Under the pieces are notes generated by a model. That model did not search any database and was not told the origin of the DNA. It saw only the letters and a program-made list of their open reading frames with translations. From assembly GCA_002631715.1 (NCBI GenBank), contig MRSX01000003.1:361286-425285 (forward strand): a DNA stretch of 64,000 nucleotides. The letters run 5' to 3'. Both the position numbers and the translations under genes were made by a program. This document shows positions 6,940 to 21,308 of this stretch, one piece after another (position 1 is the stretch's first letter; every line of letters starts with the position of its first letter). The DNA comes from Candidatus Porisulfidus sp. TsSOB (GTDB taxonomy: Bacteria; Pseudomonadota; Gammaproteobacteria; Poriferisulfidales; Poriferisulfidaceae).

Positions 6940-7256
6940 GATGCTGCTATTGTGACAAATTTTCGATGCTCTCAGGAAAATTTTTAGCGGAACCTGCGGT
7001 GAACCTGAAGGAGTTTATTTCGCTGAAGCCAGCCGCACATTTTGTCGCGATGGATTTTGAGTCTCTGGTGTTTCCTCGCCGGAGAACATATCGTACAATG
7101 CAAGAAAGGTTCCCCTTTCGCGGTACGCTTTGCGAGGTGTTTGTGTACCATGAATTTTCCAAGTGCTTTGATTACGCTGAAGTTTACGGGACTTCTGATT
7201 TTGTCAGGTCCAGTACATTATCCCCAGTTTTTTCCGAAATCCAGCCCGCGTAACTC

Positions 7257-8792
7257 GTGAAATTTCTCAACAACTTCCTATCCAGAAACCGCGGGCTCGT
7301 CATCGCCGGTTTTGTGGTTCCCGCCAGTTTCGTCTACCACAATGTCGAGAATCTTCGAAAACGGATTCATCGGATGTTGAGGAACACCAGCGCTGAACAC
7401 GACAAAGCCGTCCAGACGATCCAAGCTCATGTGCAGGCTTGCCATGCCACTGGAAAATCAATGTGCACCGCGCGCAAGCCATGGCGAACGATGTCGGTGC
7501 GCAGCGCCGAGTTCAAGAAAGACATGCAGCAGGTTTCCATCAACCTTTGCAATGTCCTTGAGGTCGACGAGAAACGTTTAATCGTTCGCACAGAGCCGAT
7601 GGTCACCGTGGGAGATATTACTTCCTTTCTTGTTCCCAGGGGATTCGCGCTCGCTGTCCAGCCCGAGATGGAAGATCTTACCCTTGGAGGTCTGTGCATG
7701 GGCATCGGCATTGCAACAGGCAGTCACCGAGAGGGCTGCCTGTTCGAGTCGGTCGAGGCCTTCGAGATCGTTACCGCTACCGGAGAGTTTGTTCGCGCCA
7801 CGCGTGACCAGAATGCCGACCTTTTCCACGCTCTGCCCTGTTCCCACGGCACCCTAGGCTTTCTCGTAAGTATTGAGTTTCGCATTGTCCCGATTCAGTC
7901 GCACGTCAAACTCGACTACGAACCATTCCACTCGATCGACGCCTTCTGTGCACGCCTTGAGGAGCTTACCGCTTCCTCCGACGCCCCGCGTTTCGTAGAA
8001 GGACTCGTCTTCTCCAAGGAATCCGGCGTCATACTCGTTGGCGACTACGCGACACCCCCGCCCGGCGCACGCATCAATCGTATCAATGATTACTATAAGC
8101 CATGGTTTTACAGCCATGTTGGCCAGTGTCTGAAGACCGGGGCTGCCAGCGAATACATTCCTGCCCGTCATTATTTCCACCGCCACACGCCTTCCGTGTA
8201 CTTCCAACTGAAGGACCTCATTCCTTTTGCCAACACATCTTGGTATCGCTATTTGTGGGCTTGGATGGGTGCGCCGAAGGTCTCTCTGTTGAAACTGACG
8301 GTAACCCGGGAGCTCCGGCGCCAAGCTTTTGAAAACCGCGTCGTGCAGGACATCATGGTACCGATTGAGAACCTTGCTGAGTCTGTCCGCCTTAGCGACG
8401 AACTGTTCGATATCTACCCACTTTGGGTTGGGCCGGTGCGCCTCTTTGACCACGGTGCGAACGAGGGTTTTTTGCGGAATCCGGCCAACGGCGGCAGTAG
8501 CCAGATGTACGTCGACCTTGGCATTTTCGGTATCCCGCCGAATGCCAAAGCCGGCAACTACGACCAGGTGCCAACCATGCGCCGCCTAGAGAAGTTCGTC
8601 CGTGAGCGTGGCGGTTACCAGATGCTCTATACCGACATCTATATGACTCGCACCGAATTCGAGCACATGTTTGAGCACCGGCTCTACCGGAATATGCGTA
8701 ACAAGTACGCTGTCGAAAACGCCTTCCCCGAGGTCTACGACAAAGTAATACCGGAGAGTTGGCTCATTGATCTGCGAAGCACATCACCATGA
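7257..8792 (+). CDS. FAD-linked oxidoreductase, DHCR24/DWF1-like (delta-24 sterol reductase family)
   Basis: 511 aa. N-terminal TM helix followed by a PCMH-type FAD-binding domain. Same length and architecture as DHCR24. Sits in the sterol cluster. GTG start. Confidence 0.55.
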   Translation: MKFLNNFLSRNRGLVIAGFVVPASFVYHNVENLRKRIHRMLRNTSAEHDKAVQTIQAHVQACHATGKSMCTARKPWRTMSVRSAEFKKDMQQVSINLCNVLEVDEKRLIVRTEPMVTVGDITSFLVPRGFALAVQPEMEDLTLGGLCMGIGIATGSHREGCLFESVEAFEIVTATGEFVRATRDQNADLFHALPCSHGTLGFLVSIEFRIVPIQSHVKLDYEPFHSIDAFCARLEELTASSDAPRFVEGLVFSKESGVILVGDYATPPPGARINRINDYYKPWFYSHVGQCLKTGAASEYIPARHYFHRHTPSVYFQLKDLIPFANTSWYRYLWAWMGAPKVSLLKLTVTRELRRQAFENRVVQDIMVPIENLAESVRLSDELFDIYPLWVGPVRLFDHGANEGFLRNPANGGSSQMYVDLGIFGIPPNAKAGNYDQVPTMRRLEKFVRERGGYQMLYTDIYMTRTEFEHMFEHRLYRNMRNKYAVENAFPEVYDKVIPESWLIDLRSTSP

Positions 8793-8883
8793 CGGAGCTG
8801 CAACATTGAACTCGGTTTCCCTGCATTCTCTTCCGCTCAGCTTTCACGCTCGCCTTCTTGTTGCGCTGCGAAGATTTCTTGGC

Positions 8884-10221
8884 ATGCTGCTAGCGTTGAA
8901 TTTTGTGGCGCTGTGGGCAATACCCATCGTGGCTCAGGGCCGATTGTTTCGCGCCGGGTTACACCGTTTTCTGCGGCCCATCCACCGCCTCCTTGACCAT
9001 TCGGTTCTGTTGCGACACGTTGCCACAAAATACGTCTACCGGCGATCTGTGCATGCGGACTACTTTGCATCCGCAATATTTCTCATGATTGGTCTTGCGC
9101 TATCTCTCGCTGTACTTTTTACCTGGCAAATCTTGTTCGGAGAACTGCCATGGTGGCTCTTAGCGGCATACTATTTTGCATGGGTGGGATTTGGTGGCCG
9201 TGGTATGGGGACGGCATACACCTTGGCCCATCGCGAGGGCCATGTTGCAGGAGGCCGCATGTACCGGCCATGGATCGCCAAACACATTGGAAATATTTTT
9301 GAGAACCGCATCGGTCTATGGTACGGCCTCGTTCCGCACACGTTTTCGACATCGCATATTCTTCTTCATCACCGGCTGAATGCCGGCAAGGCAGACCCGC
9401 TTTACGTGTGGGATCTCGACCGCACCAAATTTAGCGACATGCTTTTGTATCAATGGCGGGCATTCGTGTACGTGACCGGCCTTGGCAGCATTCGAGAATT
9501 CCGCAGACAACAAGGCGTAAATCCGGCGATCCGAAAGGCGCATGCCAAGCTGTCGCGCGGCATGCGGATCTATTGGGTGTATGTGCCGGTGGCACTTGTT
9601 GCACTACTGGTGGCCACGGGCTCGAGTGTTTTATCGTCGCTCATGTTTCTGTTTTTTGTCTACATCCAACCGCTTTTTGCAATGTCGACGTTCATCGCAC
9701 TTGTGACTCTATCGCAGCATGGATTTCTTGAACATGACGAAAAAGGACGAAACCTGAAACACGTGGCTGCGATTACTATTTTAGGTGGTCATGACGATTC
9801 CTTCGGAGAAGACGATCATTTCTCACACCATTATTCTCCTGCTGTTATGCACGACAAACTGGCAGTGGCGCAATCCCTTGAAGAAAGCGAATGGGCTCGT
9901 TGTCACGGTTCCGTCTTCAAGGACACTTCCATAATCGAGATTGCGATTTTTTTGCTGCTTGGGCGGATTGACCGGCTGATTGATCGTCACTACGTAGATT
10001 ACTCAGGAGCACTGGGGAGAGATCAAATCGTCGAGCTGTTTACCCGCCGTGCAAAACGTAAGGAAATGAGCTATGAGGAATATGAATTTCGGTATCTTCC
10101 GGCACTAAGGGACAGCGTTCGCGATCACGTGAAACAAGGCCTCTTCAATAACGAAAACCATGCGTATATTTTCCAGGCCCATCACGAGATTGGTCCCGAG
10201 TTCAGGATGAGCCGAACTTGA
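8884..10221 (+). CDS. Membrane-bound His-box di-iron oxygenase (fatty-acid desaturase/hydroxylase superfamily), putative sterol desaturase/oxidase
   Basis: Multiple TM helices and three histidine boxes: HREGH, HILLHH, HDDSFGEDDHFSHHY. First ATG after the stop of the upstream gene taken as start; a TTG at 8806 is also possible. Confidence 0.5.
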   Translation: MLLALNFVALWAIPIVAQGRLFRAGLHRFLRPIHRLLDHSVLLRHVATKYVYRRSVHADYFASAIFLMIGLALSLAVLFTWQILFGELPWWLLAAYYFAWVGFGGRGMGTAYTLAHREGHVAGGRMYRPWIAKHIGNIFENRIGLWYGLVPHTFSTSHILLHHRLNAGKADPLYVWDLDRTKFSDMLLYQWRAFVYVTGLGSIREFRRQQGVNPAIRKAHAKLSRGMRIYWVYVPVALVALLVATGSSVLSSLMFLFFVYIQPLFAMSTFIALVTLSQHGFLEHDEKGRNLKHVAAITILGGHDDSFGEDDHFSHHYSPAVMHDKLAVAQSLEESEWARCHGSVFKDTSIIEIAIFLLLGRIDRLIDRHYVDYSGALGRDQIVELFTRRAKRKEMSYEEYEFRYLPALRDSVRDHVKQGLFNNENHAYIFQAHHEIGPEFRMSRT

Positions 10222-10233
10222 ACGAGCGGCGAC

Positions 10234-11301
10234 TTATTCAGTTCCTCGATTCTCGGGTTTGCGGGCCAGGAAGAAAAATGCCGGGGTAAAGAGACCGGAT
10301 TCGCCCCCTGCGACCAGTGCGTCCGCCCCCCTGTTCAGCAATGTGCTGACCATGGTGGAGCCTTTCGGAACGACCCGCAGCGTCTCCCCGACCCTTAAGG
10401 TCAAATTGGTCAGGGCGCGCCCGATGGGTGTGCGCGGAATGCTCGCGAGACTAAGGTCGCGACCCTGCAGGGCGCGATACCAAGGCATATCCGGATCCGC
10501 TTCGGGGGCGAGGTCGCGGGCTTCCAAAAACTCGAACCCAGCCGCGCTCAATGCGGGGCCGATTTCCGATGTGATGGTGATATCCGGTAGCCCATTCCCT
10601 TTCTCGATATCTTTCTTGATCCGAAGGTGCCGGGCATTCTCCGGATCGAAGTCCTCGGTGAGGCACCACTCGTAGCCCGCGAAGCAGGCTCCTGGGCGCA
10701 GGATGCGGAAGACCTCCCGGAACGCTGCGATCTTGTCCGGCGCGTGGGGCATGGACTCGATCGCGATGGCGGCGTCGTAGGAGTTGTCGTCCTCGGGAAT
10801 CTGCATGAAATCACCGTGGATGAAGCGGCACAGCGACTGGATGTCTTGGCTTTGTGCTTCGGCACGCTTGATCTGGTAGGCATTATTGTTGAGACCGACG
10901 AAACTGGCCCCGGAATAACGGGCCAGCGTGCGCATTGGTCCCCCGATCCCGCAGCCCAGGTCAATGACCTGCATCCCGGGTTTCAGTGACAGCTGATCAG
11001 CTAGGAAATGCTCGTGCCTGAGCAGTGACTCCTTGAAGCTTTCGCCTCGAAGCCGGGGCGCGAAGTGAAAGGACTGACCCCAGCCGAATTCGTAAAAGTC
11101 GGTCGCCAGGTCGTAGTAGTGATTGACGAGTATCTGGTAGTCCTCTTTCCTGTTCTCCAGGTCGTCATCGTGGAGCCCGGTGTACTGATCGACCGCCTGG
11201 GTCACTTCATCCGGAGTGAGATCCGAGAAGGAACGGGAACTCGATTGTTTGGTGGAGGTGCGGCTCATTCGGTTATCCTGCCAGTTCGCGCTCTTCTTCA
11301 A
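10234..11301 (-). CDS. Sterol C-24 methyltransferase (ERG6/SMT family)
   Basis: Signature YYDLATDFYEFGWGQSFHFA (SMT region I) and SAM motif VIDLGCGIGGP. ATG overlaps the stop of the upstream SQMO-OSC ORF (ATGA). Confidence 0.8.
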   Translation of the reverse strand: MKKSANWQDNRMSRTSTKQSSSRSFSDLTPDEVTQAVDQYTGLHDDDLENRKEDYQILVNHYYDLATDFYEFGWGQSFHFAPRLRGESFKESLLRHEHFLADQLSLKPGMQVIDLGCGIGGPMRTLARYSGASFVGLNNNAYQIKRAEAQSQDIQSLCRFIHGDFMQIPEDDNSYDAAIAIESMPHAPDKIAAFREVFRILRPGACFAGYEWCLTEDFDPENARHLRIKKDIEKGNGLPDITITSEIGPALSAAGFEFLEARDLAPEADPDMPWYRALQGRDLSLASIPRTPIGRALTNLTLRVGETLRVVPKGSTMVSTLLNRGADALVAGGESGLFTPAFFFLARKPENRGTE

Positions 11302-14300
11302 GAAGCGGCAGATACGCTGTGCGGCTCTTCCAGGGCCGCTGCCGCCAAAGGCACCGTGTCGCTCTCAATTGCGTCGGTAGCAAGGGAATCGGCAGTTGCC
11401 AGTTCCAGCCGGGCCCGGCGCCGTTGCTCATAGAGGCCAAGCGCGCGTAGGGGGAAATACTGCCGATACAGAACGTAGTCCAGCAGGGCCGTACGGAAAA
11501 AGACCCCGGCCATGTCTTGCTTGGGCCATGCGCCATCCGCGTTTTGGGTGTCGAGCAGGAACCGGGCACCCCGCGAGATCGCGGCCCAGTTGGGATCGTC
11601 CGCCTCAAGGAGCGCAATCAATGCCCATGCGGTCTGGATAATCTGGCTTTCGTCGTGTGCAACGTATTGGCCGGTGAAGCAACCGCTGTAGTGCTCACCC
11701 CATCCTCCGTCTCCGCGCTGACGGTCCAGCAGCCATTGGCAGGCCAAGCGTAGTACCGGATCGCCGGGGCGGGCCCCGGCTGCAAGCAGGCCCCTGATTC
11801 CGAAGGAAGTACCGTAGATGAACTGAACCCCCCATACGCCGCGCCACGATCCATTGCTTGCCTGAGTCCGGCGAAGCCAGGCGCCGGCTTGCGACATGGC
11901 ATCCGTCACTGCTTGGTCCGTGGTGTCCGGAAAGTGCTTCTTGCAGGCTGCGAGTGCCGCAAGGCAAGAAGCGGTGCACTCGACATAGGAATGTTCAGTC
12001 ATCGACTCGCCGAACATCTCGGCCGGATTCAGCCATTCAAGCCCGATTACGGAGCGTTGCGCTTCATAGCTGCCGAAACCGCCATCGCGGTTCTGGCCCC
12101 GCAGCATGAACTGGATCGCGTCTTTGAGCATGGTTGTGTTCGTCGCCTCGCGGTGGGCAGCGATAATTCCGAGCACTGCTTCCGCAGTGCAGTCGGTGAC
12201 CGGCCAGCCATGCCACTGTCCGGCAAAGCACCAGCCACCCTTGGGGTCGTTTCGAAAAGCCTCACGAAATCCTTCGAAACTGGTCTTGATTTGTTGCGTT
12301 TCCAGGAAATCGGCCCCGCGTTGGAGGGAATTTCGAACTTCAGGGGCCAGATCGAGTCTGGACATTGTTTCCAATGCTTGCAGGGCGAAGCCGGTATCCC
12401 ACGAAATGCTTCTCGCCCCGGTGACTCGTGCCCCGTATTCCTCGTCTTCCCAGATCCAGTCGTCCAATTTCTCGAGTGCTTGGCGACTGTCGGGGTCGTT
12501 CGGGTTGCGCAGCCATAAGGCCAGGATGTTGAGGAGCCCGCTGACCGGGGAGATGCTCGTGTGATTGGTCGTTCGCAGTTCCCATTGGATTCGCTCGGTG
12601 ATCGTGTCCATGCATCGAGCGCGCAGGTGTTTACTATGGAATCGTTCAAATAACTGCGAAAACCCATACCCGACCCGGAGCCATACACTGGGCCGCGCAT
12701 GGAGGTCGGCGCTTCGCAGACGATTGCGGCCCGCGGAAAAGCCGACGTTGGCAAAACCCTCGGGATATAGCTCTTCTCGCAGTGATGCGATCAAAGGCGT
12801 GACAGGTGCCTGAAACCGATATGAGTAGACAGCCGACATCGCCATGTAGATGAGCCGGGTATGGCAATACCAGTTGGAGGGGTGCAGCGGAATCCAACGC
12901 GGCAGGCTCCACAGTTCCGGCAGGATGGCGTTGATTCCGCGCCAGTCGTAGAGGTTGAGGAGCGCCAGCCAGAATTTTCCCCAACTCGGAATGCCGAGGA
13001 CTCCTTCGGTCTGCAGGAATTCCTGGGCCGGCTTCAGCAGTGGATCATCCCGCTCGACGCCAAGCAGCCTCGCCGCGACGTAAACCAGCGTGGTGACAAA
13101 CAAGTTGGGAGGCGGGTGCTCGTGCAGGCCCCATGCGCCTCCTTCTAGGCGAGTCTGTTCGAAAGACCGCAGCACGCGTCGGCGTCGGTCGGGATCGAGC
13201 GGCTGCTCCATGATGTAGTGCAGCAGTACGTACTGCGCGGTGAGCATGGGGCACCAAACCATCTCGCCTTCCCAGGCGCCATCCCCATCCTGGAGATCCA
13301 GCAGGCGCTCGCTCGCGCTCTTCAATGCCGGGCCGGCATCGGGCGATTCGACCGTCCACGGGCGGGCGGGTTGAGAGTCGTCGGCCTTCGACGGGATGGA
13401 GACCAGGAACGTGTGGGACCAAGTGGCCCGGATTTGCTCGTCCTCTCCTTCGCCCGTGTTTCTCGCCCGGTGCAACATCCGAGCACCCCGCAGCAACCAT
13501 TTGAGACGGCCCGAGAGTGAATTGAAGGTATCCCGGGCACGGCGCCAGGCAAGTTTGTCGAAGGATCGCGGCATTTCTCTGGCAATCGCCCGGACCATCG
13601 TCGTGAAAAACGCGGAACTCAGGTGGATAACCGATGTGTCTTCACAGGCGAGTAAACGCATGGTCCGGTCGCGCATCGTAGAATTTGCCCGCCAGCCTCG
13701 GTAGGTTGCATGTCGGAGAGCCACCACCTCGGCCCGATGATCGGCAAAGACCTCGTAGAGTCCTATGGCAAGGAACTCCGGAGTACGGATCGCCCGGAAA
13801 CGCTTCTTGGTGAAGTCGCGAAAGTCCCCGTTCTCGGCGAGTGCAAGCGCATCACCGAAACCGAGGGTGATTCCAACCGCCGACATGGGATGGTAGTGCC
13901 CGGCCGCATCGCCGATCAGCACTCGATTCGGACTCCCGTAGCTAACACGCGGCCTCAGCTTATTACTGGCAGTGCGAAACCGCCCCGCCCGCAGCGCTTC
14001 AACAAACGCGGGTCGGACTGATTCCGGCAACCAACCGGTGTACGAGTCCAACAGGAACCCAATCCGATCCCGGGGTGTCCAGCGATCCGCCGGAACATCT
14101 ACGACGATGCGCACGCCGCGCTCTCCGAGGCGGTACATGAGGATCGGCCCGGGTCCACCCCCCAACACGTACCCATAACCCTCCAACGGCAACGTCACGT
14201 CATCGACCAAAACTCCTACCATCCACGAGCAAGTTTTATGGTTCGTCGGCAAGCCCAGTGATCGACGCACGACCGAACCCCGACCGTCGGCACCGACGAT

Positions 14301-14759
14301 CCGCGCAGCCGCGACAGACTCATCGGTCCCGTTGCGAGTAAAAGTGATTCGTCCGTCTACGACCTCACGAACCTGTGCATTGAGAATGAAATCAATACTC
14401 GATTTGCTCTCGATCGCTTCGTGCAGATGCGAGACGAGCACCGCATGCTCGCAGGCCAACCCGTGAGCGCCGTCCGGATAGGGAAGTATGATCGGTTCCG
14501 AGTCGTCTTCCGGGCACACCACGAACCCGTTGCCTGCCCCGATGGGAGGCTGCGTGTCGAGCCCGATCCCGATCTCGCGCAGTATCCGCACGGCGGGGGG
14601 GTGCAGCCATTCTCCCGCTAGTCGCTTGGAAGCCTCGGGGCTCGCTTCGAGCAGGACAACCCGGGCGCCTTTTCGCGCGTAGGCGAGCGCACACACACTG
14701 CCGACTGGCCCCCCGCCGACAATCGCGACATCGTAATGCCGGGTGGGGGGGATGCTCAC
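11298..14759 (-). CDS. Fused squalene monooxygenase (N-terminal) and oxidosqualene cyclase (C-terminal)
   Basis: N-terminal half has the FAD motifs DVAIVGGGPVGS and LIGDAAGHYHP of squalene epoxidases. C-terminal half has QW repeats and VTDCTAEAV (OSC-type DCTAE, not SHC DxDDTA). One uninterrupted frame. Start taken at a GTG (14759) overlapping the CYP51 TGA; the ORF-track TTG at 14828 is the alternative. Confidence 0.8.
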   Translation of the reverse strand: MSIPPTRHYDVAIVGGGPVGSVCALAYARKGARVVLLEASPEASKRLAGEWLHPPAVRILREIGIGLDTQPPIGAGNGFVVCPEDDSEPIILPYPDGAHGLACEHAVLVSHLHEAIESKSSIDFILNAQVREVVDGRITFTRNGTDESVAAARIVGADGRGSVVRRSLGLPTNHKTCSWMVGVLVDDVTLPLEGYGYVLGGGPGPILMYRLGERGVRIVVDVPADRWTPRDRIGFLLDSYTGWLPESVRPAFVEALRAGRFRTASNKLRPRVSYGSPNRVLIGDAAGHYHPMSAVGITLGFGDALALAENGDFRDFTKKRFRAIRTPEFLAIGLYEVFADHRAEVVALRHATYRGWRANSTMRDRTMRLLACEDTSVIHLSSAFFTTMVRAIAREMPRSFDKLAWRRARDTFNSLSGRLKWLLRGARMLHRARNTGEGEDEQIRATWSHTFLVSIPSKADDSQPARPWTVESPDAGPALKSASERLLDLQDGDGAWEGEMVWCPMLTAQYVLLHYIMEQPLDPDRRRRVLRSFEQTRLEGGAWGLHEHPPPNLFVTTLVYVAARLLGVERDDPLLKPAQEFLQTEGVLGIPSWGKFWLALLNLYDWRGINAILPELWSLPRWIPLHPSNWYCHTRLIYMAMSAVYSYRFQAPVTPLIASLREELYPEGFANVGFSAGRNRLRSADLHARPSVWLRVGYGFSQLFERFHSKHLRARCMDTITERIQWELRTTNHTSISPVSGLLNILALWLRNPNDPDSRQALEKLDDWIWEDEEYGARVTGARSISWDTGFALQALETMSRLDLAPEVRNSLQRGADFLETQQIKTSFEGFREAFRNDPKGGWCFAGQWHGWPVTDCTAEAVLGIIAAHREATNTTMLKDAIQFMLRGQNRDGGFGSYEAQRSVIGLEWLNPAEMFGESMTEHSYVECTASCLAALAACKKHFPDTTDQAVTDAMSQAGAWLRRTQASNGSWRGVWGVQFIYGTSFGIRGLLAAGARPGDPVLRLACQWLLDRQRGDGGWGEHYSGCFTGQYVAHDESQIIQTAWALIALLEADDPNWAAISRGARFLLDTQNADGAWPKQDMAGVFFRTALLDYVLYRQYFPLRALGLYEQRRRARLELATADSLATDAIESDTVPLAAAALEEPHSVSAAS

Positions 14760-16144
14760 TGGAAAATGCTGGCCTGCGGGCGGCGGCGGTAACGGATTCG
14801 GCAGGGTTCCCTGGGGCCTGTCACCCAACTGCCGTAATTCGGTTCGGGAAACTCGGTGACGGGCTGAAAATCAAAGCGATCAAACAGCACGGTCCAGATT
14901 GCTTTCAGTTGCATGTAAGCAAAATGTTCACCGATGCACCGGTGTTTGCCGCCGCCAAAACTGATCAAGGCATAGTGGTGCTGTTTGCCCTCGGATGCAG
15001 GTGGGGCGAAACGGTCTGGGTTGAAGCGGTTCGGATCGGCAAACAGGTGGGGCAACCGTTGGGAGACCGCCGGCGACACCATGGCCAAGGCACCGGCTGG
15101 CACGACATGATCCTTGTAGTGCAAGGGCCTGAGTACCTTGCGGATTAGCATGATCAACGGCGGGTGCATCCGCTCGCATTCGCGAATGGCGTGCTCTAGT
15201 GTGACTTGGTGCCTGAGGCTCTCGTAGCTCACGGTTCCTGCCTCGCGGTAGGTGTCTTGCACCTCGTCTTTCACCCGCGCCAGGTACGACGGGGCCCTCA
15301 TGAGTTCCAGAAGGGTCCAGGTTGCGAGCACCGCGCTGGTGTGCTGGCCCGCGAACAGCACCGTCAGCAGGATTCCGGTAATCTCGTCATCGCTTGGGGC
15401 GTGGCCATCCTTGTACCGAGCGTTCATGAGGGTCTGCATGAAATCTTCAGGCTGGGCATCGGTTCGCCGACGTTCCGCCATGATCTGGCCGAAGAGCTTG
15501 GCGACTTTTCGGCGGGCCCGGTCGCGGCTCCGATGTGCCGGGATTGGGAGATAAGGGAAAAAGAACCCCAGGGTGTTGATGCCGTTTTGCAGTTCGTGGT
15601 ATGCCTCGGCGAATCCTGCGTCCAGCTGGGCCCGGACTTCCTCTCCAATGAGGCAACGGCTGGCGATCTTGACGGTGAGTTCGTTCATAGCGTGGGGCAG
15701 GTCGACTTCCCCATGCTCGCCGAGATCCTCGGCGAACTGCCAAGTCTCCTCGAACATGATGCGGGCGAACCGGCGCATCGCGGCTTCATTGAGCGCCGGA
15801 TACAGAAATCCCAATTGCTCGAGCATCAGTTCAGGCGTAGTGTCGTAAGCCACGCCACGCCCGAAGATGGGCACCGTGAACTGGTAGACCTCTTTGGCGC
15901 TGAGCTGGTCTTCGGGTGCGTGGAAGTAGAAGTCGTGAGCTTCGGGCCCGGTGAAGAGGAAGAATTCGCGCGGGCCGAGCCGGAACCGGATGAGCTCGCC
16001 CTGCTCGCGCCAGCCGCGCTGCAGCATCGCGATCGGGTCCTTCTGGAAATCCAGCAGATGGCCGATCAACGGCCACCTGCCCGCGACCTCGGGAATGGCC
16101 CGGGACTCCTGCGGCGAAAGTGGGGTGGAACGTACGGTGGTCAT
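14756..16144 (-). CDS. Sterol 14-alpha demethylase (cytochrome P450 CYP51)
   Basis: Heme loop FGGGKHRCIGEHFA, I-helix AGQHTSA and B' region YQFTVPIFGRGVAYD are CYP51 signatures. Start at MTTVRS, 14 nt after the reductase stop. Confidence 0.8.
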   Translation of the reverse strand: MTTVRSTPLSPQESRAIPEVAGRWPLIGHLLDFQKDPIAMLQRGWREQGELIRFRLGPREFFLFTGPEAHDFYFHAPEDQLSAKEVYQFTVPIFGRGVAYDTTPELMLEQLGFLYPALNEAAMRRFARIMFEETWQFAEDLGEHGEVDLPHAMNELTVKIASRCLIGEEVRAQLDAGFAEAYHELQNGINTLGFFFPYLPIPAHRSRDRARRKVAKLFGQIMAERRRTDAQPEDFMQTLMNARYKDGHAPSDDEITGILLTVLFAGQHTSAVLATWTLLELMRAPSYLARVKDEVQDTYREAGTVSYESLRHQVTLEHAIRECERMHPPLIMLIRKVLRPLHYKDHVVPAGALAMVSPAVSQRLPHLFADPNRFNPDRFAPPASEGKQHHYALISFGGGKHRCIGEHFAYMQLKAIWTVLFDRFDFQPVTEFPEPNYGSWVTGPREPCRIRYRRRPQASIFQ

Positions 16145-16158
16145 GTCGTCAGGTTGCT

Positions 16159-17253
16159 TCAATAGACGAATGGCAGCATCGCGAAACGCACTCGCTTCGT
16201 ATACCGCTCCCACAGTTCGCCGTACTTGGCGCGGCAGCGACGGTCGTCGCGTCTTGAGCGATGCGACAACAGACCCACCAACCACGCGGGCAGCAGGTAG
16301 GGCACCCAGGATGCGAATCCGGTGGTCAGGGCGAACGAAAAGTAAATGCAGATCTCGCCGGTATAGTTGAGATGCCGCCCGACTCCCCAGAACCCGGAGA
16401 CCAGCAGGCGCCCGTCCAGGGACTCGGCGGGCTTCCCCCAGATCTTGGCGTGGGAGTCACGCTTGAAACGGTGCTTTTGCCCGTTGGCGCCGCGGAAGAG
16501 CCAGAAGCCGAAGACAAACAGCAGGGTGATTGCGACGGCAGCGACGGGGGACAGGGGCTCGGTTGCATGGACCAGCCACCAGCCGGCAAGGCAATAGAAG
16601 AACGGCACCAGCACGTAGTCTCCCCAGACCAGCATCCATCCGAAGCGCTCGCTGACGATGTCCCAGGTGTGAACCATTCCGTATTCGAAGTGGAAGTAGT
16701 TGAGGACGTACAGGAAGGTGAAGGCCTGGTAAAGCATCATGGCCAAGGTCAGTTCGCCGTAGGTTTCGTATTGCACGGCGGCGAACGAGACGTTGAACAA
16801 CGCGAGGCCGATGAGGGAAGGGCGGTAACTGAAAAACTTCAGATCCACCCCAAACCAGGTCGGATGGCCTTCCACGCCATAGAAGAAGCCCTCCAGTCCT
16901 CTTGGGGAATCGCCCTGGGCTCGGGTGCCTTGGTAGTACAGCAAGGCGGAAAAAGCAAACGCGAATACGTTCGCCACCACGAACAGGGCGAGAAAGTGGG
17001 TATACAGCACCGAAAGAGAGAACCAGCCGGAGACTTGGGCAAGCCCTCCCACGACCATGGTCAGCAGGAACAGGGCAAGCCCATTGCTCCTGTAGATCCT
17101 TGATTTTCCATCGTAATCTGGACCCGTAATCCGGCGTCCGGGCAACAGCATCGAACCCAGGAACAGAAAGCCGAAGAATGCCAGCATCATGGCTGCCGCG
17201 TCGAGCAGGGTGCTGCCGGACAGCGCAATCAGCGAGAAGGGCAGTTCAGGCAT
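16159..17253 (-). CDS. Sterol reductase, ERG4/ERG24 family (C-14 or delta-24(28)/delta-7 reductase)
   Basis: Polytopic membrane protein with the C-terminal signature LLVSGFWGVGRHLNYTGEICIYFSFAL. Confidence 0.8.
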   Translation of the reverse strand: MPELPFSLIALSGSTLLDAAAMMLAFFGFLFLGSMLLPGRRITGPDYDGKSRIYRSNGLALFLLTMVVGGLAQVSGWFSLSVLYTHFLALFVVANVFAFAFSALLYYQGTRAQGDSPRGLEGFFYGVEGHPTWFGVDLKFFSYRPSLIGLALFNVSFAAVQYETYGELTLAMMLYQAFTFLYVLNYFHFEYGMVHTWDIVSERFGWMLVWGDYVLVPFFYCLAGWWLVHATEPLSPVAAVAITLLFVFGFWLFRGANGQKHRFKRDSHAKIWGKPAESLDGRLLVSGFWGVGRHLNYTGEICIYFSFALTTGFASWVPYLLPAWLVGLLSHRSRRDDRRCRAKYGELWERYTKRVRFAMLPFVY

Positions 17254-18343
17254 AGGTGTTGCCGTTCTCCGCTTTGCGTGCCAGGTATTCCCGCCACTTG
17301 CGCACGGTCACGTCCTGGAAAGCCTCGACCACGGGGTTGAACTCGACGGTCGGAGCGTCCCAATGTTTTTCGTAACCTTCCTGTTCTCCTTCGAGCGCGT
17401 ATTGATCCTGGGTGAGCAACGGGCCGATGAGGATGCGGTTCGAGATCTTTAGAACAAAGGTCATGGCGAAACGGGGAATGTGGACCGGCAGAAAGGGTAT
17501 CTTCAGCGACTTGAAATAGAACAAAAAGAAGGTCCGGGTGGTCCGCTCGTCGATGGGCAGCACGAAAAGCCAGTGTTTGATCCAGTCATCGGTGTTCGAC
17601 CATTGGTAAGGGTATTGGAAGCAGAGATCCATGTGATTGGTGTCGAGTTTTTTGTGGTCGACGAATAGCCCGGAGATACGCCCGCGTCCGACCTGAGTCT
17701 CGTAGGAGAGGTGCACGTCATCGCCGATGGTCTCGCAGCGGGTGAGGGTGGCGCCGACGAAAGGCCGGTATTCACGGTGCAGATGGGCATGAGAGAAGTC
17801 GCTCACGTTGTCGATCACCATAGAGTGGTGGGCCGACCAGGTGAAAGTGAGCGGGACACAGGCCCATCGGCCGCGTCCCTCGAGTTCGGGGATGTCCGGG
17901 ATCTGCCGCGATTCCGCCTTCTCCGGGTCTCCGGGAAACAACCAGACCAGGCCGTAACGGACTTTTACGGGGTAGGATCGGATCGAGACGTTCTGACAAC
18001 TTTCCCCGAGGTGCTCGCGAGGCCCTCCGGCACGTTGCCCCTCTCCGTCGTATTGCCAGCCATGGTAGGCGCAGACCAGCCGACAGTCCTCGACATGGCC
18101 GAGGGAAAGCTTGAGCTGGCGGTGGGCGCAACGATCCTCGACCGCATGGAACGAGCCGTCCTTCGCCCGGAACAGTGCGATGGCATGCTTCCAGAAAACG
18201 ACTTCAGTCACGCTTCCCGGCTTGACGCGACGTACTTCTTCGACCGCGTACCAATAATCCGGGTCCATGCCCGCGGCGCGTGCTTTCTGGCGTAAATTGC
18301 TGGCTTCATCGAAGCCAGGAGGCGGGCTTGTCATTGAGTCCAT
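17246..18343 (-). CDS. Rieske [2Fe-2S] non-heme iron oxygenase, SdmA-like (bacterial sterol C-4 demethylase oxygenase)
   Basis: Rieske motif CAHRQLKLSLGH...CAYHGWQY. Location between a sterol reductase and an NAD-dependent reductase mirrors sdmA-sdmB. Confidence 0.65.
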   Translation of the reverse strand: MDSMTSPPPGFDEASNLRQKARAAGMDPDYWYAVEEVRRVKPGSVTEVVFWKHAIALFRAKDGSFHAVEDRCAHRQLKLSLGHVEDCRLVCAYHGWQYDGEGQRAGGPREHLGESCQNVSIRSYPVKVRYGLVWLFPGDPEKAESRQIPDIPELEGRGRWACVPLTFTWSAHHSMVIDNVSDFSHAHLHREYRPFVGATLTRCETIGDDVHLSYETQVGRGRISGLFVDHKKLDTNHMDLCFQYPYQWSNTDDWIKHWLFVLPIDERTTRTFFLFYFKSLKIPFLPVHIPRFAMTFVLKISNRILIGPLLTQDQYALEGEQEGYEKHWDAPTVEFNPVVEAFQDVTVRKWREYLARKAENGNTYA

Positions 18344-18344
18344 T

Positions 18345-19487
18345 TCAGCCTCCGTCCGAAGTGATGGGTGTGCCTTGATCCGGCATGAGTTCTTCTACTT
18401 GTCCCGCGCCGTCCGTGCATGGGGGTTTCGCGTCCGGGTTCGTGATCGCCTTGCGCTGGTGGTAGTGAAAGGCGTAGGCTTCGTGGACCGCGGCGCGGAT
18501 GCTGGTCGGTCGGTAGCCGAGTTCCTCTTTCGCCTTGCTGTTGTTGGCATGGCGGCACTTTTGCAGCAGGCGGATGGCGCCGGGAGTGAAGCGCTGGGGG
18601 AAGCTCGGATGGAACCGGCTCAGGTAAAAACTGGCCACTTCCGAGAAAGCGAGCATCGCGCGGACTGGAATCCGCCGGTGCGGGCGCGGGATGCCGGAGA
18701 CTTCCTCGTACAGGTCGATGATGTCGGAGATGGTTTTGTACTCGGAACTGAAGATATATTTCTCGCCCGAGCGTCCTCGGTCCATGCACAACCGGTGTCC
18801 TTCAACGATGTCCCGTGCCGCGACAAACTCGAAGCCGCCATCGACGTAGGCATGGAGTTTGCCGTTCGTGTAATCGCACAGGGTTCTACCCAATCGCGAG
18901 GGGAAGAAATCGCTGCCCCCCACAACCGCGCAGCACGTCGCGACCAAGACGTCCTGTCCGGCTGACGCGGCGCGCCAGCACTCGTGTTCGACGAGTGTCT
19001 TGCTGCGCTCGTAGGGCATCGTACGTTCCATGGGATAGAAAAGCATCGTCTCGTCGCTGGGGGCGGAAGGGTCATCCAGGTTGTACCCGACCGCGCTGAA
19101 GGAGCCCGTCACGACCACCCGGCCGGCTTCCGTCTCCCGTGCCGCCTGCAGCATGTTGCGGGTGCCGAGAACGTTGCATTCGTATATTTCCCGACGGTGG
19201 GCGTGGTTTCCTTCGATGGTCGAAACCTTGGCTGCACAGTGATAGACGCCCTGGCAGCCCTCGACCGCACGCCTGACGGAATTCAAGTCCCGGAGGTCGC
19301 CGAACACGCGTTCGACCTCGAGGCCTTCCAGCGCCTCGTTGTTCTCTTCGTGTCTTAGCAGCACCCGGACCCGGGTGCCTTCGTCGAGTAGCCGGCGCAC
19401 GAGATTGGCGCCCACGTGTCCAGCCGCACCGGTAACGAAAACGGGTGCAGCCGATGAATTGCCGGGTGTGCTCGATCCTGAAGTCAT
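18345..19487 (-). CDS. NAD(P)-dependent epimerase/dehydratase (3-beta-HSD-like) family reductase, SdmB-like
   Basis: Rossmann motif VFVTGAAGHVGANLVRRL and catalytic YERSK. First gene of the minus-strand sterol operon. Confidence 0.65.
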   Translation of the reverse strand: MTSGSSTPGNSSAAPVFVTGAAGHVGANLVRRLLDEGTRVRVLLRHEENNEALEGLEVERVFGDLRDLNSVRRAVEGCQGVYHCAAKVSTIEGNHAHRREIYECNVLGTRNMLQAARETEAGRVVVTGSFSAVGYNLDDPSAPSDETMLFYPMERTMPYERSKTLVEHECWRAASAGQDVLVATCCAVVGGSDFFPSRLGRTLCDYTNGKLHAYVDGGFEFVAARDIVEGHRLCMDRGRSGEKYIFSSEYKTISDIIDLYEEVSGIPRPHRRIPVRAMLAFSEVASFYLSRFHPSFPQRFTPGAIRLLQKCRHANNSKAKEELGYRPTSIRAAVHEAYAFHYHQRKAITNPDAKPPCTDGAGQVEELMPDQGTPITSDGG

Positions 19488-19747
19488 CTTGGCCCTGATT
19501 CCGAAACTCTGGTTATTTCCGTCCGTTGTTCGGCGTCATCGAGGGCGCACGCAGGCGAATACGTTTGATGGACAAGCGCGTCACGGAATTAGCCGCTCCA
19601 CGATATTTTCTTCAAGCCCATCGGGTAGCTGGGCACCGATCTGCCTGCCAGTCATCCCTCGCATATGACTGATGACATAATTCTAACAAACTTATAGTTT
19701 GGCACCGAAGTGCGCAGACCTGCAGAATTTTTTGAGAGTGAGGGTGC

Positions 19748-20077
19748 CTATTTCGCAGGAGCGAAGAGGATTACTAGGGTGAGAATGCCGGTTATGGTTC
19801 CGGTTGCCCCGCCCGCGACGGCCAGGATGTGCCAAGAGAGTTTATTGAACCTTGCTTCCATCTCCCCACGCAGTCTAAATTCCATCTCCGCCAAGTCAGC
19901 CTTCGTCGCTAACTCGCTTTGCGCATCCTGAAGGGTCTCGACCAAGGTCACGGCCTGTTTGTCTCCGAATTCTGCTTTCTTCAGATTCTTGACAGCCCGC
20001 AGTGTATCAAAGTTCGGCGGGGTGACCTTTTTGCGCGCATCGGTTGTGGCTTCGGACCTTTTTGCGCTCGGGTTCAT
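19748..20077 (-). CDS. DUF1640-like coiled-coil protein with C-terminal TM helix
   Basis: LATKADLAEMEFRLRGEMEARFNKL... followed by a hydrophobic tail. Start at MNPSAKR with a strong SD (AAGGAGA). Confidence 0.45.
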   Translation of the reverse strand: MNPSAKRSEATTDARKKVTPPNFDTLRAVKNLKKAEFGDKQAVTLVETLQDAQSELATKADLAEMEFRLRGEMEARFNKLSWHILAVAGGATGTITGILTLVILFAPAK

Positions 20078-20389
20078 ATCGGTTCTCCTTGACGGGGGCG
20101 GGATGAATGTGGGGAGACTCTTTCTATTGAGGGTCTCCATGGCTAGGTTCGGGATGATGCCATGAGATCGGTGAAAATCAAGGAAAAATGGTCGGAATTT
20201 TTAGACCGTTTTTTCTAAATTAGAATCAAACGGTTAGAGATCAAACTGAATGCCTGTGAGTCGGATTTTCGAGAGTTTTTCGTGTTTTTAGTTTCGTGGG
20301 CTCGTCGATTCCTGCAGAGTGCGGATTTTTCGACTCGGCCGGATGGATCAGACCCGGATAACCATACTAAGGGCTTCCGGAGAAGGGAT

Positions 20390-20779
20390 TCACGGAACTG
20401 AGAGCCAGCCGCGGATTTCGGCTTGGATGCTTCTTATCTGCCTGAGCGCAGCTTGAATTTCGGAAGGCTCAGGAGGTCTTGGAAATTCGCCTTCGGCATC
20501 CGGATAACGCCAGGCGGTTGCTGCCCCGGTGAGGCTGTCGAGTTTGACGAGGCTTTTCCTGAGAGGGTGTTCTTGGGCTAGTTGTTCGGTAATTCGGGTG
20601 ATGTCGTGGGTACGAAGATCCGGGAGCCCTTCGTGCAGGCACACGGCACGCGCGAGTTTTTCTGCAGCCTGCTGGGCGTGGAATGCCGCCAGGTCCGGGA
20701 GGTCTGGAAGGAGAAGATCGACGCCAGCGATATCCCGTTCGGCGGTCTTCAGGAATCCTAGGACAAGCGGAGAGGTCAT
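20390..20779 (-). CDS. HEPN domain protein (toxin component of a HEPN/MNT pair)
   Basis: AAFHAQQAAEKLARA-type HEPN helix. ATGA overlap with the upstream MNT gene. Confidence 0.6.
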   Translation of the reverse strand: MTSPLVLGFLKTAERDIAGVDLLLPDLPDLAAFHAQQAAEKLARAVCLHEGLPDLRTHDITRITEQLAQEHPLRKSLVKLDSLTGAATAWRYPDAEGEFPRPPEPSEIQAALRQIRSIQAEIRGWLSVP

Positions 20780-21308
20780 CGCAGGGGGAATGTCTCGCGA
20801 TAGCGTTTCCAGAACGGACCATCAACGCGCGCATCCAGCAATTTTCCCTCCCGGTCGACCGCGTAAGGGAGCATGCCGGGCACTTTCCGATTCTTCTCGA
20901 ACGCAGAATACTGGCAAGGAACTACGTCCACCGGGACACCACACCCGGAAATGGGTTTCCGAGCCGTCAGGTAATCGAGAGGTTGGTCGTCCGGGGTGAT
21001 CACCATCAGGTCGAAGTCACTGTCCGAGCGCGCGGTGCCGCACGCGCGGCTGCCGAACAGGAAAATGGCATCCGGATTGAATGCGATAGCCAGATTCATG
21101 GTCAGAACGGAAAGAGCGACTTCCGCGTTGCGGAATGGGCCAAGACTCTCATCTGCCGCTGCGGCCTCGTGCCTTGGCTGAGGCGCATTGCGAACGTATT
21201 CCAGGACTAGGCCAATCAATTCCGGGTCATCTTTGATGGAATTAACCAATTCGCGCACATCGGCTTGCTGATCTTGGCGTACGCGGAAACTGATGATGGG
21301 GGTATTCA
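20776..21308 (-). CDS. Minimal nucleotidyltransferase (MNT) antitoxin with N-terminal extension
   Basis: LFGSRACGTARSDSDFDLMV nucleotidyltransferase motif. Start at MNTPIISFRV with an AGGAGG SD. The N-terminal ~50 aa may form a ribbon-helix-helix. Confidence 0.6.

What the first reader, a model, noticed from the sequence alone, without database searches (positions are those of the whole stretch)
7257..19487. Compact eukaryote-like sterol biosynthesis supercluster in a gammaproteobacterial housekeeping backbone
Nine adjacent genes cover squalene epoxidation, cyclisation, C-14 demethylation (CYP51), sterol double-bond reduction, C-4 demethylation (Rieske oxygenase plus NAD-dependent reductase), C-24 methylation and DHCR24/DWF1-like side-chain reduction, plus a His-box oxygenase. 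Seven lie in one translationally coupled minus-strand operon (stop/start overlaps ATGA or GTGA, or gaps of 1-14 nt). The remaining two converge on it. In most described sterol-producing bacteria these functions are scattered or incomplete. Here almost the whole post-squalene pathway, including side-chain alkylation, is packed into about 12 kb. It lies between mutS and the cinA-recA block.
Basis: partly seen in the sequence, partly recalled or inferred. Interest (0 to 1): 0.9.

Follow-up and report, generated by a model that had tools for sequence, protein, structure and literature searches.

The report
Published sponge-symbiont sterol synthesis gene cluster
This is a real bacterial gene cluster for making side-chain-methylated sterols, but this same locus from a Theonella swinhoei sponge symbiont was published in 2023; only one conserved, unassigned membrane di-iron enzyme in it remains an open question.

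Summary
HMM and solved-structure matches assign a DHCR24-like reductase, a sterol C-24 methyltransferase (SMT), squalene epoxidase, oxidosqualene cyclase (OSC, DCTAE motif), CYP51, an ERG24-type reductase and SdmA/SdmB. mutS and recA flank it.

Two corrections apply.
- Epoxidase and cyclase are one fused 1153-aa ORF, so there are eight genes, six on the minus strand.
- The His-box gene starts at 8806 (471 aa). It is a divergent FA_desaturase/AlkB-fold protein, not an ERG3/ERG25-type sterol enzyme.

It is not new. The window's exact SMT, CYP51 and SdmA proteins lie on an NCBI contig of 444,506 bp. That is the length of the Theonella swinhoei-associated Chromatiales MAG scaffold in Brown et al. 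2023. Their gene table lists DHCR24, a skipped gene, SMT, fused SMO/OSC, ERG11, ERG24, sdmA and sdmB in the same order. Kelly et al. 2022 described such clusters in 10 phyla of sponge symbionts.

The skipped gene is the residual lead. Its family is small, unnamed and found only in uncultured MAGs. It sits beside DHCR24-like genes in 13 of 42 loci, in both orders, and often near an SMT. It may be an undescribed sterol-modifying oxygenase or desaturase.

The parts
7257..8792 (+). DHCR24-like FAD-dependent sterol delta-24 reductase (511 aa from GTG; the automated gene call of 443 aa is too short)
   Evidence: Pfam FAD_binding_4, 45.8 bits. 41% identity over 500 aa, E 1e-138, to a human DHCR24 sequence recalled from memory, including the N-terminal membrane segment. 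This agrees with the 40.8% / 4e-134 that Brown et al. give for gene 2690455920. GC3 is 0.656 against 0.70-0.80 for neighbouring genes.
8806..10221 (+). Unassigned His-box membrane di-iron protein (471 aa, TTG start), a divergent FA_desaturase / AlkB-fold family
10234..11268 (-). Sterol C-24 methyltransferase (SMT/ERG6 type, 344 aa)
   Evidence: Pfam Sterol_MT_C 74.5 bits plus Methyltransf_11. Motif YEFGWGQSFHF is present. The exact sequence lies on an NCBI contig of 444,506 bp, the scaffold length of 'T. swinhoei associated Chromatiales sp. 1 of 2', gene 2690455922.
11298..14759 (-). Fused squalene monooxygenase-oxidosqualene cyclase, one ORF of 1153 aa (GTG start overlaps the CYP51 stop as GTGA)
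   Evidence: The reading frame is continuous. It is called as a single gene of 1153 or 1132 aa in L001 and L002. Brown et al. give the same gene id for ERG1 and ERG7 and mention fused SMO/OSC homologs in their methods. About 114 of 120 nearest OSC homologs are fusions.
13572..14735 (-). Squalene epoxidase (SE / FAD_binding_3) domain of the fusion
   Evidence: Pfam SE 81.2 bits (cut-off 20.1) and FAD_binding_3 78.4 bits, residues 32-419 of the 1176-aa ORF.
11412..13340 (-). Oxidosqualene cyclase domain of the fusion
   Evidence: SQHop_cyclase_N and _C at 172 and 180 bits. TIGR03463 2,3-oxidosqualene cyclase 736 bits against squalene-hopene cyclase 269 bits. Human lanosterol synthase 1W6K scores E 1e-137. 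The motif VTDCTAEA is present. Residues at human positions 381/449/453 are A/H/V.
14756..16144 (-). CYP51 sterol 14-alpha-demethylase (462 aa)
   Evidence: Pfam p450 198.7 bits. Best PDB sequences are Methylococcus capsulatus CYP51 7JJ1/6MCW at E 1e-102, followed by 50+ other CYP51 entries. Motifs YQFTVPIFGRGVAYD and AGQHTS are present.
16159..17253 (-). ERG4/ERG24-family sterol reductase (delta-14 type, 364 aa)
   Evidence: Pfam ERG4_ERG24 239.4 bits. Best PDB sequence is 4QUV, a delta(14)-sterol reductase, at E 3e-72.
17246..18343 (-). SdmA-like Rieske oxygenase (C-4 methyl oxidation, 365 aa)
   Evidence: Rieske plus VanA_C. NCBIfam NF052579 4beta-methylsterol monooxygenase 403 bits, E 9e-121, below the 600-bit equivalog cut-off.
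18345..19487 (-). SdmB-like NAD(P)-dependent SDR (C-4 decarboxylation/reduction, 380 aa)
   Evidence: Epimerase and 3Beta_HSD. NCBIfam NF052578 SdmB 306 bits, E 3e-91, below the 600-bit cut-off.
6940..7256 (.). AT-richer (GC 0.46) intergenic region between divergent mutS and the DHCR24-like gene; presumed promoter region
   Evidence: The promoter scan was not above chance, so this is inference only.
19488..19747 (.). Upstream region of the six-gene minus-strand operon (GC 0.52); presumed promoter region
   Evidence: The promoter scan was not above chance, so this is inference only.

Best explanation
The region is the chromosomal sterol-biosynthesis gene cluster of a sponge-associated sulfur-oxidiser-type gammaproteobacterium (Chromatiales, near 'Ca. 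Porisulfidus'). By exact protein matches it is the Theonella swinhoei-associated Chromatiales MAG already analysed by Brown et al. 2023.

Inferred pathway:
1. Squalene comes from an SQS encoded elsewhere, fed by the MEP pathway (dxs is in the window).
2. The fused SMO-OSC epoxidises and cyclises it to a protosterol. Lanosterol, cycloartenol or parkeol cannot be told apart from the A/H/V residues.
3. CYP51 removes the 14-alpha methyl.
4. The ERG24-type reductase saturates delta-14.
5. SdmA/SdmB remove one or both C-4 methyls.
6. SMT methylates C-24.
7. The DHCR24-like flavoprotein reduces the side-chain double bond.

No C-8,7 isomerase, C-5 desaturase or C-7 reductase is present. The predicted product is therefore a delta-8-type, possibly 4-methyl, 24-alkyl sterol rather than a delta-5 sterol.

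The eighth gene is an AlkB/desaturase-fold di-iron membrane enzyme. It most likely oxidises or desaturates the sterol, with the side chain as best guess. It behaves as a mobile partner of DHCR24 and SMT.

Shown: gene content, domains, the fusion, synteny and identity with the published MAG. Inferred: substrates, order of steps, translational coupling and the product.
For: - Domain and family assignments.
- Operon junctions.
- Housekeeping flanks.
- Full synteny at 86-96% amino-acid identity in an uncultured Chromatiales MAG (L006) and a Ca. Porisulfidus chromosome (L007). In L007 mutS and the VWA gene are upstream and HEPN is downstream, so it is the same locus.
- The exact SMT, CYP51 and SdmA sequences and the 320-aa His-box call lie on an NCBI contig of 444,506 bp. 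That equals scaffold 2690316284 of the T. swinhoei Chromatiales MAG.
- Consecutive IMG genes 2690455920-27 are listed as DHCR24, (unlisted), SMT, SMO+OSC, ERG11, ERG24, sdmA, sdmB.
- His-box association with sterol genes. DHCR24-like is the commonest neighbour (13 of 42 loci, same strand, both gene orders, in Chromatiales, Arenicellales, Pseudomonadales, Nitrospirales and unclassified Gammaproteobacteria). An SMT is near in about 12 loci.
- Both close DHCR24 relatives found in sponge metagenome contigs have the His-box gene directly downstream.
Against: - No lipid data exist for this organism. The enzyme order and the product are inferred.
- SdmA and SdmB score below NCBIfam's equivalog cut-offs.
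- TIGR03463 (OSC) is also below its curated cut-off, 736 against 851 bits.
- About 19 of 42 His-box loci show no sterol gene within 10 kb, so a non-sterol substrate for that enzyme is not excluded.
I could not retrieve that contig itself.
Confidence: 0.9

Rival explanations
1. The cluster is a hopanoid or other non-sterol triterpenoid locus: a squalene-hopene cyclase plus unrelated P450 and methyltransferase genes.
For: SQHop_cyclase Pfam domains are shared by SHC and OSC. HpnA (TIGR03466) is the second-best hit for the SdmB-like protein.
Against: The cyclase has DCTAE, not DxDDTA. The OSC model scores 736 bits against 269 for SHC, and human lanosterol synthase scores 1e-137 against SHC at 1e-50. 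It is fused to a squalene epoxidase. All top structure-database hits for the P450 are CYP51. The Sterol_MT_C domain is present.
Confidence: 0.02
2. The 'eukaryote-like' genes are host (sponge) or other eukaryotic DNA misassembled into a bacterial contig.
For: DHCR24 is 41% identical to the human enzyme, and SMT and ERG24 are classically eukaryotic. The two plus-strand genes have a lower GC3 than their surroundings.
Against: There are no introns. Genes overlap or sit 1-29 nt apart in an operon. Bacterial SdmA/SdmB are part of the same operon. The same arrangement sits between mutS and HEPN in a closed Ca. Porisulfidus chromosome and in independent long-read contigs. Brown et al. classify the scaffold as prokaryotic.
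Confidence: 0.01
3. The DHCR24-like and His-box genes are a later-acquired two-gene module that remodels sterols taken from the host or diet. It would alter side-chain saturation, or dealkylate in the manner of the insect and Tetrahymena routes that end with a DHCR24 step. It would not be a step of the de novo pathway.
For: The GC3 of the two genes (0.656 and 0.540) departs from the operon and backbone values of 0.70-0.80. The pair, or pair plus SMT, occurs without OSC, CYP51, ERG24 or SdmAB within 10 kb in Arenicellales, Pseudomonadales and other Gammaproteobacteria. From established knowledge, a di-iron His-box protein carries out sterol C-24 de-ethylation in Tetrahymena, and DHCR24 ends phytosterol dealkylation in insects.
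Against: Here, and in L006, L007, L046 and L047, the pair abuts the de novo cluster. At least two chromosomes whose His-box gene lies away from the cluster still carry an SMO-OSC fusion elsewhere, judged by matching contig lengths 2,618,325 and 4,341,124. Frequent linkage to an alkylating SMT argues against dealkylation.
Confidence: 0.25
4. The His-box protein is unrelated to sterols. It could be an acyl-lipid desaturase or an alkane/terminal-methyl hydroxylase that merely sits next to the cluster.
For: The only family match is generic FA_desaturase. The closest fold is the alkane monooxygenase AlkB. About 19 of 42 loci show no sterol gene nearby.
Against: Its three commonest neighbours across phyla are DHCR24-like, P450 and SMT genes. 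Adjacency to DHCR24 is kept in both gene orders. It starts 13 nt after the DHCR24 stop here.
Confidence: 0.3

Closest known systems
Sterol gene cluster of the Theonella swinhoei-associated Chromatiales MAG (IMG genome 2690315631, scaffold 2690316284, genes 2690455920-27), Brown et al. 2023, Nat Commun 14:1859 (PMC10070321)
   Same: Same gene order: DHCR24, one unlisted gene, SMT, fused SMO/OSC, ERG11, ERG24, sdmA, sdmB. The window's exact SMT, CYP51 and SdmA proteins lie on an NCBI contig of the same length, 444,506 bp. Its SMT ('1 of 2') was among those assayed in vitro.
   Different: Apparently nothing. This is the same locus or a near-identical strain. The paper leaves gene ..921 (the His-box protein) unassigned. 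I could not read the per-enzyme assay result, which is only in a figure.
[quoted passage not shown] 2022, Microbiome 10:164 (PMC9531527)
   Same: The core order is 'DFR' (= SdmB), a hypothetical protein (= SdmA), ERG24, CYP51, LSS, with SMT or FDFT1 flanking. CSGs were found in 115 of 537 MAGs across 10 phyla including Gammaproteobacteria, with evidence of horizontal transfer and purifying selection.
   Different: In their typical CSG the SMT is on the opposite strand. Here it is the last gene of the same operon. DHCR24 and the His-box gene are not described there.
Methylococcus capsulatus sterol pathway (SMO, OSC, CYP51, SdmA/SdmB)
   Same: It is also gammaproteobacterial. Its CYP51 is the best structural-database match at E 1e-102. 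It uses SdmA/SdmB-type C-4 demethylation.
   Different: M. capsulatus has separate SMO and OSC genes, no SMT and no DHCR24. It uses a distinct 8,14-sterol reductase that is not reported from sponge Chromatiales (PMC13277303). The window's SdmA and SdmB score below the equivalog cut-offs.
Alkane 1-monooxygenase AlkB and membrane fatty-acid desaturases (PF00487 superfamily), compared with the His-box protein only
   Different: Only 11-12% identity, no PDB sequence match and no NCBIfam family. It has an extra N-terminal helical segment and a conserved C-terminal domain of about 110 aa. Its genomic partners are sterol enzymes rather than rubredoxin or alk genes.

Membership tests
Published T. swinhoei Chromatiales MAG sterol cluster (Brown et al. 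2023) | Gene order DHCR24 - x - SMT - fused SMO/OSC - ERG11 - ERG24 - sdmA - sdmB on consecutive genes | tested here: met
   Window order compared with consecutive IMG gene ids in Supplementary Data 1.
Published T. swinhoei Chromatiales MAG sterol cluster (Brown et al. 2023) | Sequence identity with scaffold 2690316284 (444,506 bp) | tested here: met
   The exact SMT, CYP51 and SdmA proteins and the 320-aa His-box call occur on an NCBI contig of 444,506 bp. The scaffold length comes from Suppl. Table 2. This is indirect: the contig DNA itself could not be fetched.
Sponge-symbiont CSG (Kelly et al. 2022) | ERG24-CYP51-LSS core on one strand, preceded by a DFR-like gene and a hypothetical gene, flanked by SMT or FDFT1 | tested here: met
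   SdmB, SdmA, ERG24, CYP51, SMO-OSC and SMT are all on the minus strand. The SMT strand differs from their typical case.
Oxidosqualene cyclase (as opposed to squalene-hopene cyclase) | Catalytic DCTAE motif instead of DxDDTA; closer to OSC than to SHC profiles and structures | tested here: met
   VTDCTAEA is present. 1W6K scores E 1e-137 against SHC at 1e-50. TIGR03463 scores 736 bits, below its 851 cut-off, against TIGR01507 at 269. TIGR01787 scores 518, above its 322.7 cut-off.
Lanosterol synthase versus cycloartenol synthase | Residues at human positions 381/449/453: T/C(Q)/V for lanosterol, Y/H/I for cycloartenol (established knowledge) | tested here: inconclusive
   The window has A/H/V (alignment), a mixed pattern. 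The product cannot be assigned.
CYP51 sterol 14-alpha-demethylase | Closest to CYP51 among P450s; B' helix and helix I signatures | tested here: met
   The top 57 PDB sequences are CYP51, the best at E 1e-102. YQFTVPIFGRGVAYD and AGQHTS are present.
Sterol C-24 methyltransferase (ERG6/SMT) | Sterol_MT_C domain plus a class I SAM methyltransferase domain; region I motif YExGWGxSFHF | tested here: met
   Sterol_MT_C 74.5 bits (cut-off 21.7) and Methyltransf_11 63.2 bits. YEFGWGQSFHF is present.
Sterol C-24 methyltransferase (ERG6/SMT) | Catalytic methylation of a delta-24 sterol | not testable with these tools
   It was assayed in vitro by Brown et al. as 'T. swinhoei associated Chromatiales sp. 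1 of 2'. The individual result is in a figure not held as text.
SdmA/SdmB bacterial C-4 demethylase pair | Adjacent Rieske oxygenase and SDR reaching the NCBIfam equivalog scores | tested here: inconclusive
   Both are the best hits by far (403 and 306 bits, E 9e-121 and 3e-91) but fall below the 600-bit cut-offs. The two genes are 1 nt apart. Brown et al. report 44.5% and 42.8% identity to M. capsulatus and 54% to Calothrix SdmB.
DHCR24/DWF1 sterol delta-24 reductase | Full-length similarity to DHCR24, including the N-terminal membrane segment and the FAD_binding_4 domain | tested here: met
   41% identity over 500 of 511 residues, E 1e-138, using a human sequence recalled from memory. This is consistent with the published 40.8%. 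FAD_binding_4 scores 45.8 bits. There is no solved structure beyond the generic FAD domain.
ERG4/ERG24 sterol reductase | Pfam ERG4_ERG24 above cut-off; closest solved relative is a delta-14 reductase | tested here: met
   239.4 bits against a cut-off of 27. 4QUV scores E 3e-72. The regiospecificity (delta-14, delta-7 or delta-24(28)) was not tested.
ERG3/ERG25-type sterol desaturase or methyl oxidase (FA_hydroxylase, PF04116), for the His-box protein | Match to PF04116 | tested here: not met
   The only Pfam match is FA_desaturase PF00487. It is not a member of the known sterol His-box enzyme family.
FA_desaturase superfamily (PF00487), for the His-box protein | Pfam match above the gathering score; conserved His boxes; membrane di-iron fold | tested here: met

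The most novel reading that the evidence does not exclude
The unassigned 471-aa His-box protein (8806-10221) may represent an undescribed class of bacterial sterol-modifying di-iron enzyme, with an AlkB/desaturase fold rather than ERG3/ERG25 type. It appears to travel horizontally with DHCR24 and SMT among sponge symbionts of many phyla and to introduce a double bond or hydroxyl into the sterol.

The most specific version concerns Theonella. The cluster's predicted product is a 4-methyl, delta-8-type, 24-alkyl sterol with a saturated side chain. That is one desaturation (4-methyl to 4-methylene) and one double-bond shift away from theonellasterol and conicasterol, the unexplained signature sterols of this sponge. 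This would point to the symbiont, not the sponge, as their source. The specific version is weakened because homologs occur in symbionts of sponges that, as far as I know, lack 4-methylene sterols, and because the gene is linked to side-chain enzymes rather than C-4 enzymes.
Probability: 0.4. Interest if true: 0.6.

Novelty: already known. Interest (0 to 1): 0.25.

Why it matters
Bacterial side-chain-alkylated sterol synthesis bears on whether 24-alkyl steranes can be read as eukaryote or sponge biomarkers, and on who makes the unusual sterols of sponges. That point was already made using this very locus (Brown et al. 2023) and its relatives (Kelly et al. 2022), so the finding adds no new case.

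What this analysis adds is modest.
- A corrected gene model: the SMO-OSC fusion, and longer starts for the DHCR24 and His-box genes than the automated calls.
- Evidence that the one gene the literature skipped belongs to a small, conserved family. It counts 70 representatives at E<=1e-30 among 1.84 billion and occurs only in uncultured MAGs.
- Evidence that this gene is repeatedly linked to DHCR24 and SMT.

That makes the gene a concrete candidate for a missing sterol-modifying step, testable in existing E. coli sterol expression systems.

Tried and rejected
- The afdb50 library was unavailable.
- A profile search of PDB sequences with the His-box alignment found nothing even at E<=10.
- NCBIfam gave no family for the His-box protein or for ten of its more distant relatives. 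Pfam gave only the generic FA_desaturase.
- An exact look-up of the window's SMT in the gene-position index returned nothing. The 444,506-bp contig could therefore not be fetched, and identity with the published scaffold rests on cluster membership plus contig length.
- Promoter and terminator scans over 6800-20200 were at chance level, so no regulatory claim is made.
- The metagenome scan with DHCR24 returned only two true relatives, both from a Sarcotragus foetidus metagenome.
- I tried to tell whether genomes carrying only the DHCR24/His-box pair locally also have an OSC, by matching contig lengths in the OSC hit list. This resolved two cases (2,618,325 and 4,341,124 bp). The list is cut at 120 of 2,050 hits, so absence means nothing.
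- Literature searches for the His-box family in a sterol context found nothing in the held library.
- The hopanoid and eukaryotic-contamination readings were considered and rejected (see rivals).

Full report
**Observation.** ORF listing and translation give eight substantial ORFs between 7257 and 19487.

Pfam and NCBIfam assign them as follows.
- 7257-8792 (+): FAD_binding_4.
- 8767/8806-10221 (+): FA_desaturase, weak at 38 bits, with no NCBIfam family.
- 10234-11268 (-): Sterol_MT_C plus a SAM methyltransferase domain.
- 11298-14759 (-): SE and FAD_binding_3 followed by SQHop_cyclase_N and _C in one protein.
- 14756-16144 (-): P450.
- 16159-17253 (-): ERG4_ERG24, 239 bits.
- 17246-18343 (-): Rieske plus VanA_C, best NCBIfam SdmA at 403 bits.
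- 18345-19487 (-): SDR/epimerase, best NCBIfam SdmB at 306 bits.

The minus-strand junctions read from the sequence are as follows.
- SdmB to SdmA: 1-nt gap.
- SdmA/ERG24: 8-nt overlap.
- ERG24 to CYP51: 14-nt gap.
- CYP51/SMO-OSC: GTGA overlap.
- SMO-OSC to SMT: 29-nt gap before ATG 11268, which has an AGGA ribosome-binding site.

However, there is no stop codon between the epoxidase and the cyclase. It is one 1153-aa fusion protein, so the cluster has eight genes, six of them on the minus strand.

**Independent checks of the key assignments.**
- The cyclase domain matches human lanosterol synthase 1W6K at E 1e-137 against squalene-hopene cyclase at 1e-50. It carries VTDCTAEA. The residues at human positions 381/449/453 are A/H/V, so lanosterol and cycloartenol cannot be told apart.
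- The P450's best 57 solved-structure relatives are all CYP51, led by Methylococcus capsulatus CYP51 at E 1e-102.
- The ERG24-like protein matches the delta(14)-sterol reductase 4QUV at E 3e-72.
This agrees with the published 40.8%. It also shows that the true start is the GTG at 7257, not the 443-aa automated call.

**Context.** The window is a housekeeping stretch.
- Around the cluster: mutS at 4336-6939, an MNT/HEPN pair, then cinA, recA, recX, alaS and aspartokinase.
- Further along: holA, prfB, lysS, dxs, mreBCD and gatAB.
- No squalene synthase, C-8,7 isomerase, C-5 desaturase or C-7 reductase is in the window.
- The six operon genes have GC3 of 0.70-0.78, like the backbone at 0.72-0.80.
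- The DHCR24-like gene (0.656) and the His-box gene (0.540) are compositional outliers.

**Where it comes from, and whether it is new.**
- An exact-protein look-up found the cluster on two long-read ENA contigs of one sample. These are 98.8% and 97.7% identical to the window in DNA, so they are close strains, not the source.
- The window's exact SMT, CYP51 and SdmA sequences, and the 320-aa call of the His-box protein, lie on an NCBI contig of 444,506 bp.
- Brown et al. 2023 (PMC10070321) list 'Theonella swinhoei associated Chromatiales sp. 1 of 2' on scaffold 2690316284 of exactly 444,506 bp, with SMT gene 2690455922.
- Their Supplementary Data 1 assigns the neighbouring genes as follows:
  - 2690455920: DHCR24.
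  - ..922: SMT.
  - ..923: both ERG1 and ERG7.
  - ..924: ERG11.
  - ..925: ERG24.
  - ..926: sdmA.
  - ..927: sdmB.
- That is the window's order, with the fusion, and with one gene (..921) left unlisted where the His-box gene lies. Their methods also mention fused SMO/OSC homologs.
- Kelly et al. 2022 (PMC9531527) described 'clusters of steroid biosynthesis genes' in 115 of 537 Ircinia-symbiont MAGs from 10 phyla.
- The finding is therefore real but already published, down to this locus.

**Relatives.** A scan of one genome per GTDB species with a His-box alignment, followed by tblastn with all window proteins, gave these results.
- Complete synteny at 86-96% identity in an uncultured Chromatiales MAG (L006) and a Ca. 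Porisulfidus chromosome (L007).
- In L007, mutS and the VWA gene lie upstream and HEPN downstream, so it is the same chromosomal site.
- A rearranged full cluster is present in a Binatia MAG, and partial clusters sit at locus edges in Nitrospirales.
- About 114 of the 120 closest OSC homologs are SE-OSC fusions of 1104-1179 aa, at 73-94% identity across phyla.

**The one open item: the His-box protein.**
- Homologs of about 470 aa cover the whole 471-aa protein from TTG 8806.
- Invariant residues are H142x3H146, H184x3H188H189, H305 and H338x2H341H342. There is also a conserved C-terminal motif.
- It has no PDB sequence relative, no NCBIfam family and no FA_hydroxylase (ERG3/ERG25) match.
- A profile search of 1.84 billion representatives found only 70 proteins at E<=1e-30, many of them fragments. 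A further tier of unnamed FA_desaturase proteins follows.
- All 40 genome loci are uncultured MAGs. Many carry names typical of sponge symbionts, such as Ca. Porisulfidus, Ca. Poriferisocius, Binatia, Dadabacteria, Nitrospirales and Arenicellales. That these are sponge-associated is my inference from the names.
- Clustering all neighbouring ORFs shows the commonest neighbours are DHCR24-like (13 of 42 loci), P450 (12) and SMT (11).
- DHCR24 and the His-box gene are on the same strand and adjacent in both possible orders. They often lie with an SMT but without OSC, CYP51, ERG24 or SdmAB within 10 kb.
- In reverse, both close DHCR24 relatives recovered from metagenome contigs (Sarcotragus foetidus) have the His-box gene directly downstream.
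- At least two chromosomes whose His-box gene lies away from the cluster still encode an SMO-OSC fusion, judged by matching contig lengths.
- I read this as guilt by association for a sterol substrate, most likely in the side chain. The reaction is unknown.
- I found no paper on this family in the held library.

**Speculation, marked as such.** T. swinhoei's signature sterols are theonellasterol and conicasterol, which are 4-methylene sterols. Reviewers call their biosynthesis unique (PMC3280575; Suppl. Table 1 of Brown et al.). From my own knowledge, they are 24-alkyl, delta-8(14) sterols with saturated side chains.

The cluster's predicted product is a 24-alkyl, side-chain-saturated, delta-8-type sterol that may keep one C-4 methyl. 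That is close to these compounds, and a desaturase acting on the 4-methyl would complete them. The wide distribution of the His-box family, and its linkage to side-chain enzymes, argue against that specific role.

**Verdict.** Novelty is nil for the cluster. Residual interest lies in the unassigned His-box gene.

Noticed in passing
window 31566-32660 (+): prfB (RF2) carries the canonical +1 programmed frameshift site AGGGGGTATCTTTGAC at about 31624-31639. The long ORF listed from 31617 is the post-shift frame.
   Followed up: partly
window 20390-21516 (-); L007 7294-8207: A nucleotidyltransferase/HEPN (MNT-HEPN type) toxin-antitoxin pair sits between SdmB and cinA. The Ca. Porisulfidus chromosome has a second such pair between mutS and the DHCR24-like gene, so the cluster is bracketed by TA modules there.
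   Followed up: partly
window about 44200-51200: A low-GC island (0.47-0.54 against about 0.60). It holds GT1, GT2 and GT9 glycosyltransferases, a UDP-glucose dehydrogenase fragment, an FkbM methyltransferase and a HipA toxin kinase (45842-47137). It is probably a horizontally acquired surface-polysaccharide/LPS locus.
   Followed up: no
L002 7111-8500 (ENA ERZ24894577 ctg464383l): A co-occurring strain contig is 97.7% identical in DNA with 22 gap openings over 11 kb. A 1-nt insertion splits its CYP51 into two ORFs. This is either an assembly error or a pseudogenised CYP51 in a second strain.
   Followed up: partly
window 11298-14759; P0170-P0289: The SE-OSC fusion is the rule, not the exception, in this OSC clade: about 114 of the 120 nearest homologs are fusions. 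These share 73-94% identity across MAGs labelled Nitrospira, Rhodospirillales, Alphaproteobacteria and Gammaproteobacteria, which is consistent with horizontal spread.
   Followed up: partly
L008, L010, L018, L021, L036, L043 (P450 ORFs near the His-box gene): Non-CYP51 P450 genes (22-28% identical to the window's CYP51) recur within 10 kb of His-box homologs in several phyla. They may be further sterol-tailoring enzymes.
   Followed up: no
window 35627-37477 (+): dxs (DXP synthase) lies 16 kb from the cluster. The isoprenoid precursors presumably come from the MEP pathway. No squalene synthase is in the window.
   Followed up: no
window 2067-4301 (-) and 1333-2916 (-): A 744-aa protein with a C-terminal VWA domain next to mutS is conserved at 88% identity in Ca. 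Porisulfidus (L007). An overlapping 527-aa ORF has no Pfam match and is probably spurious.
   Followed up: no
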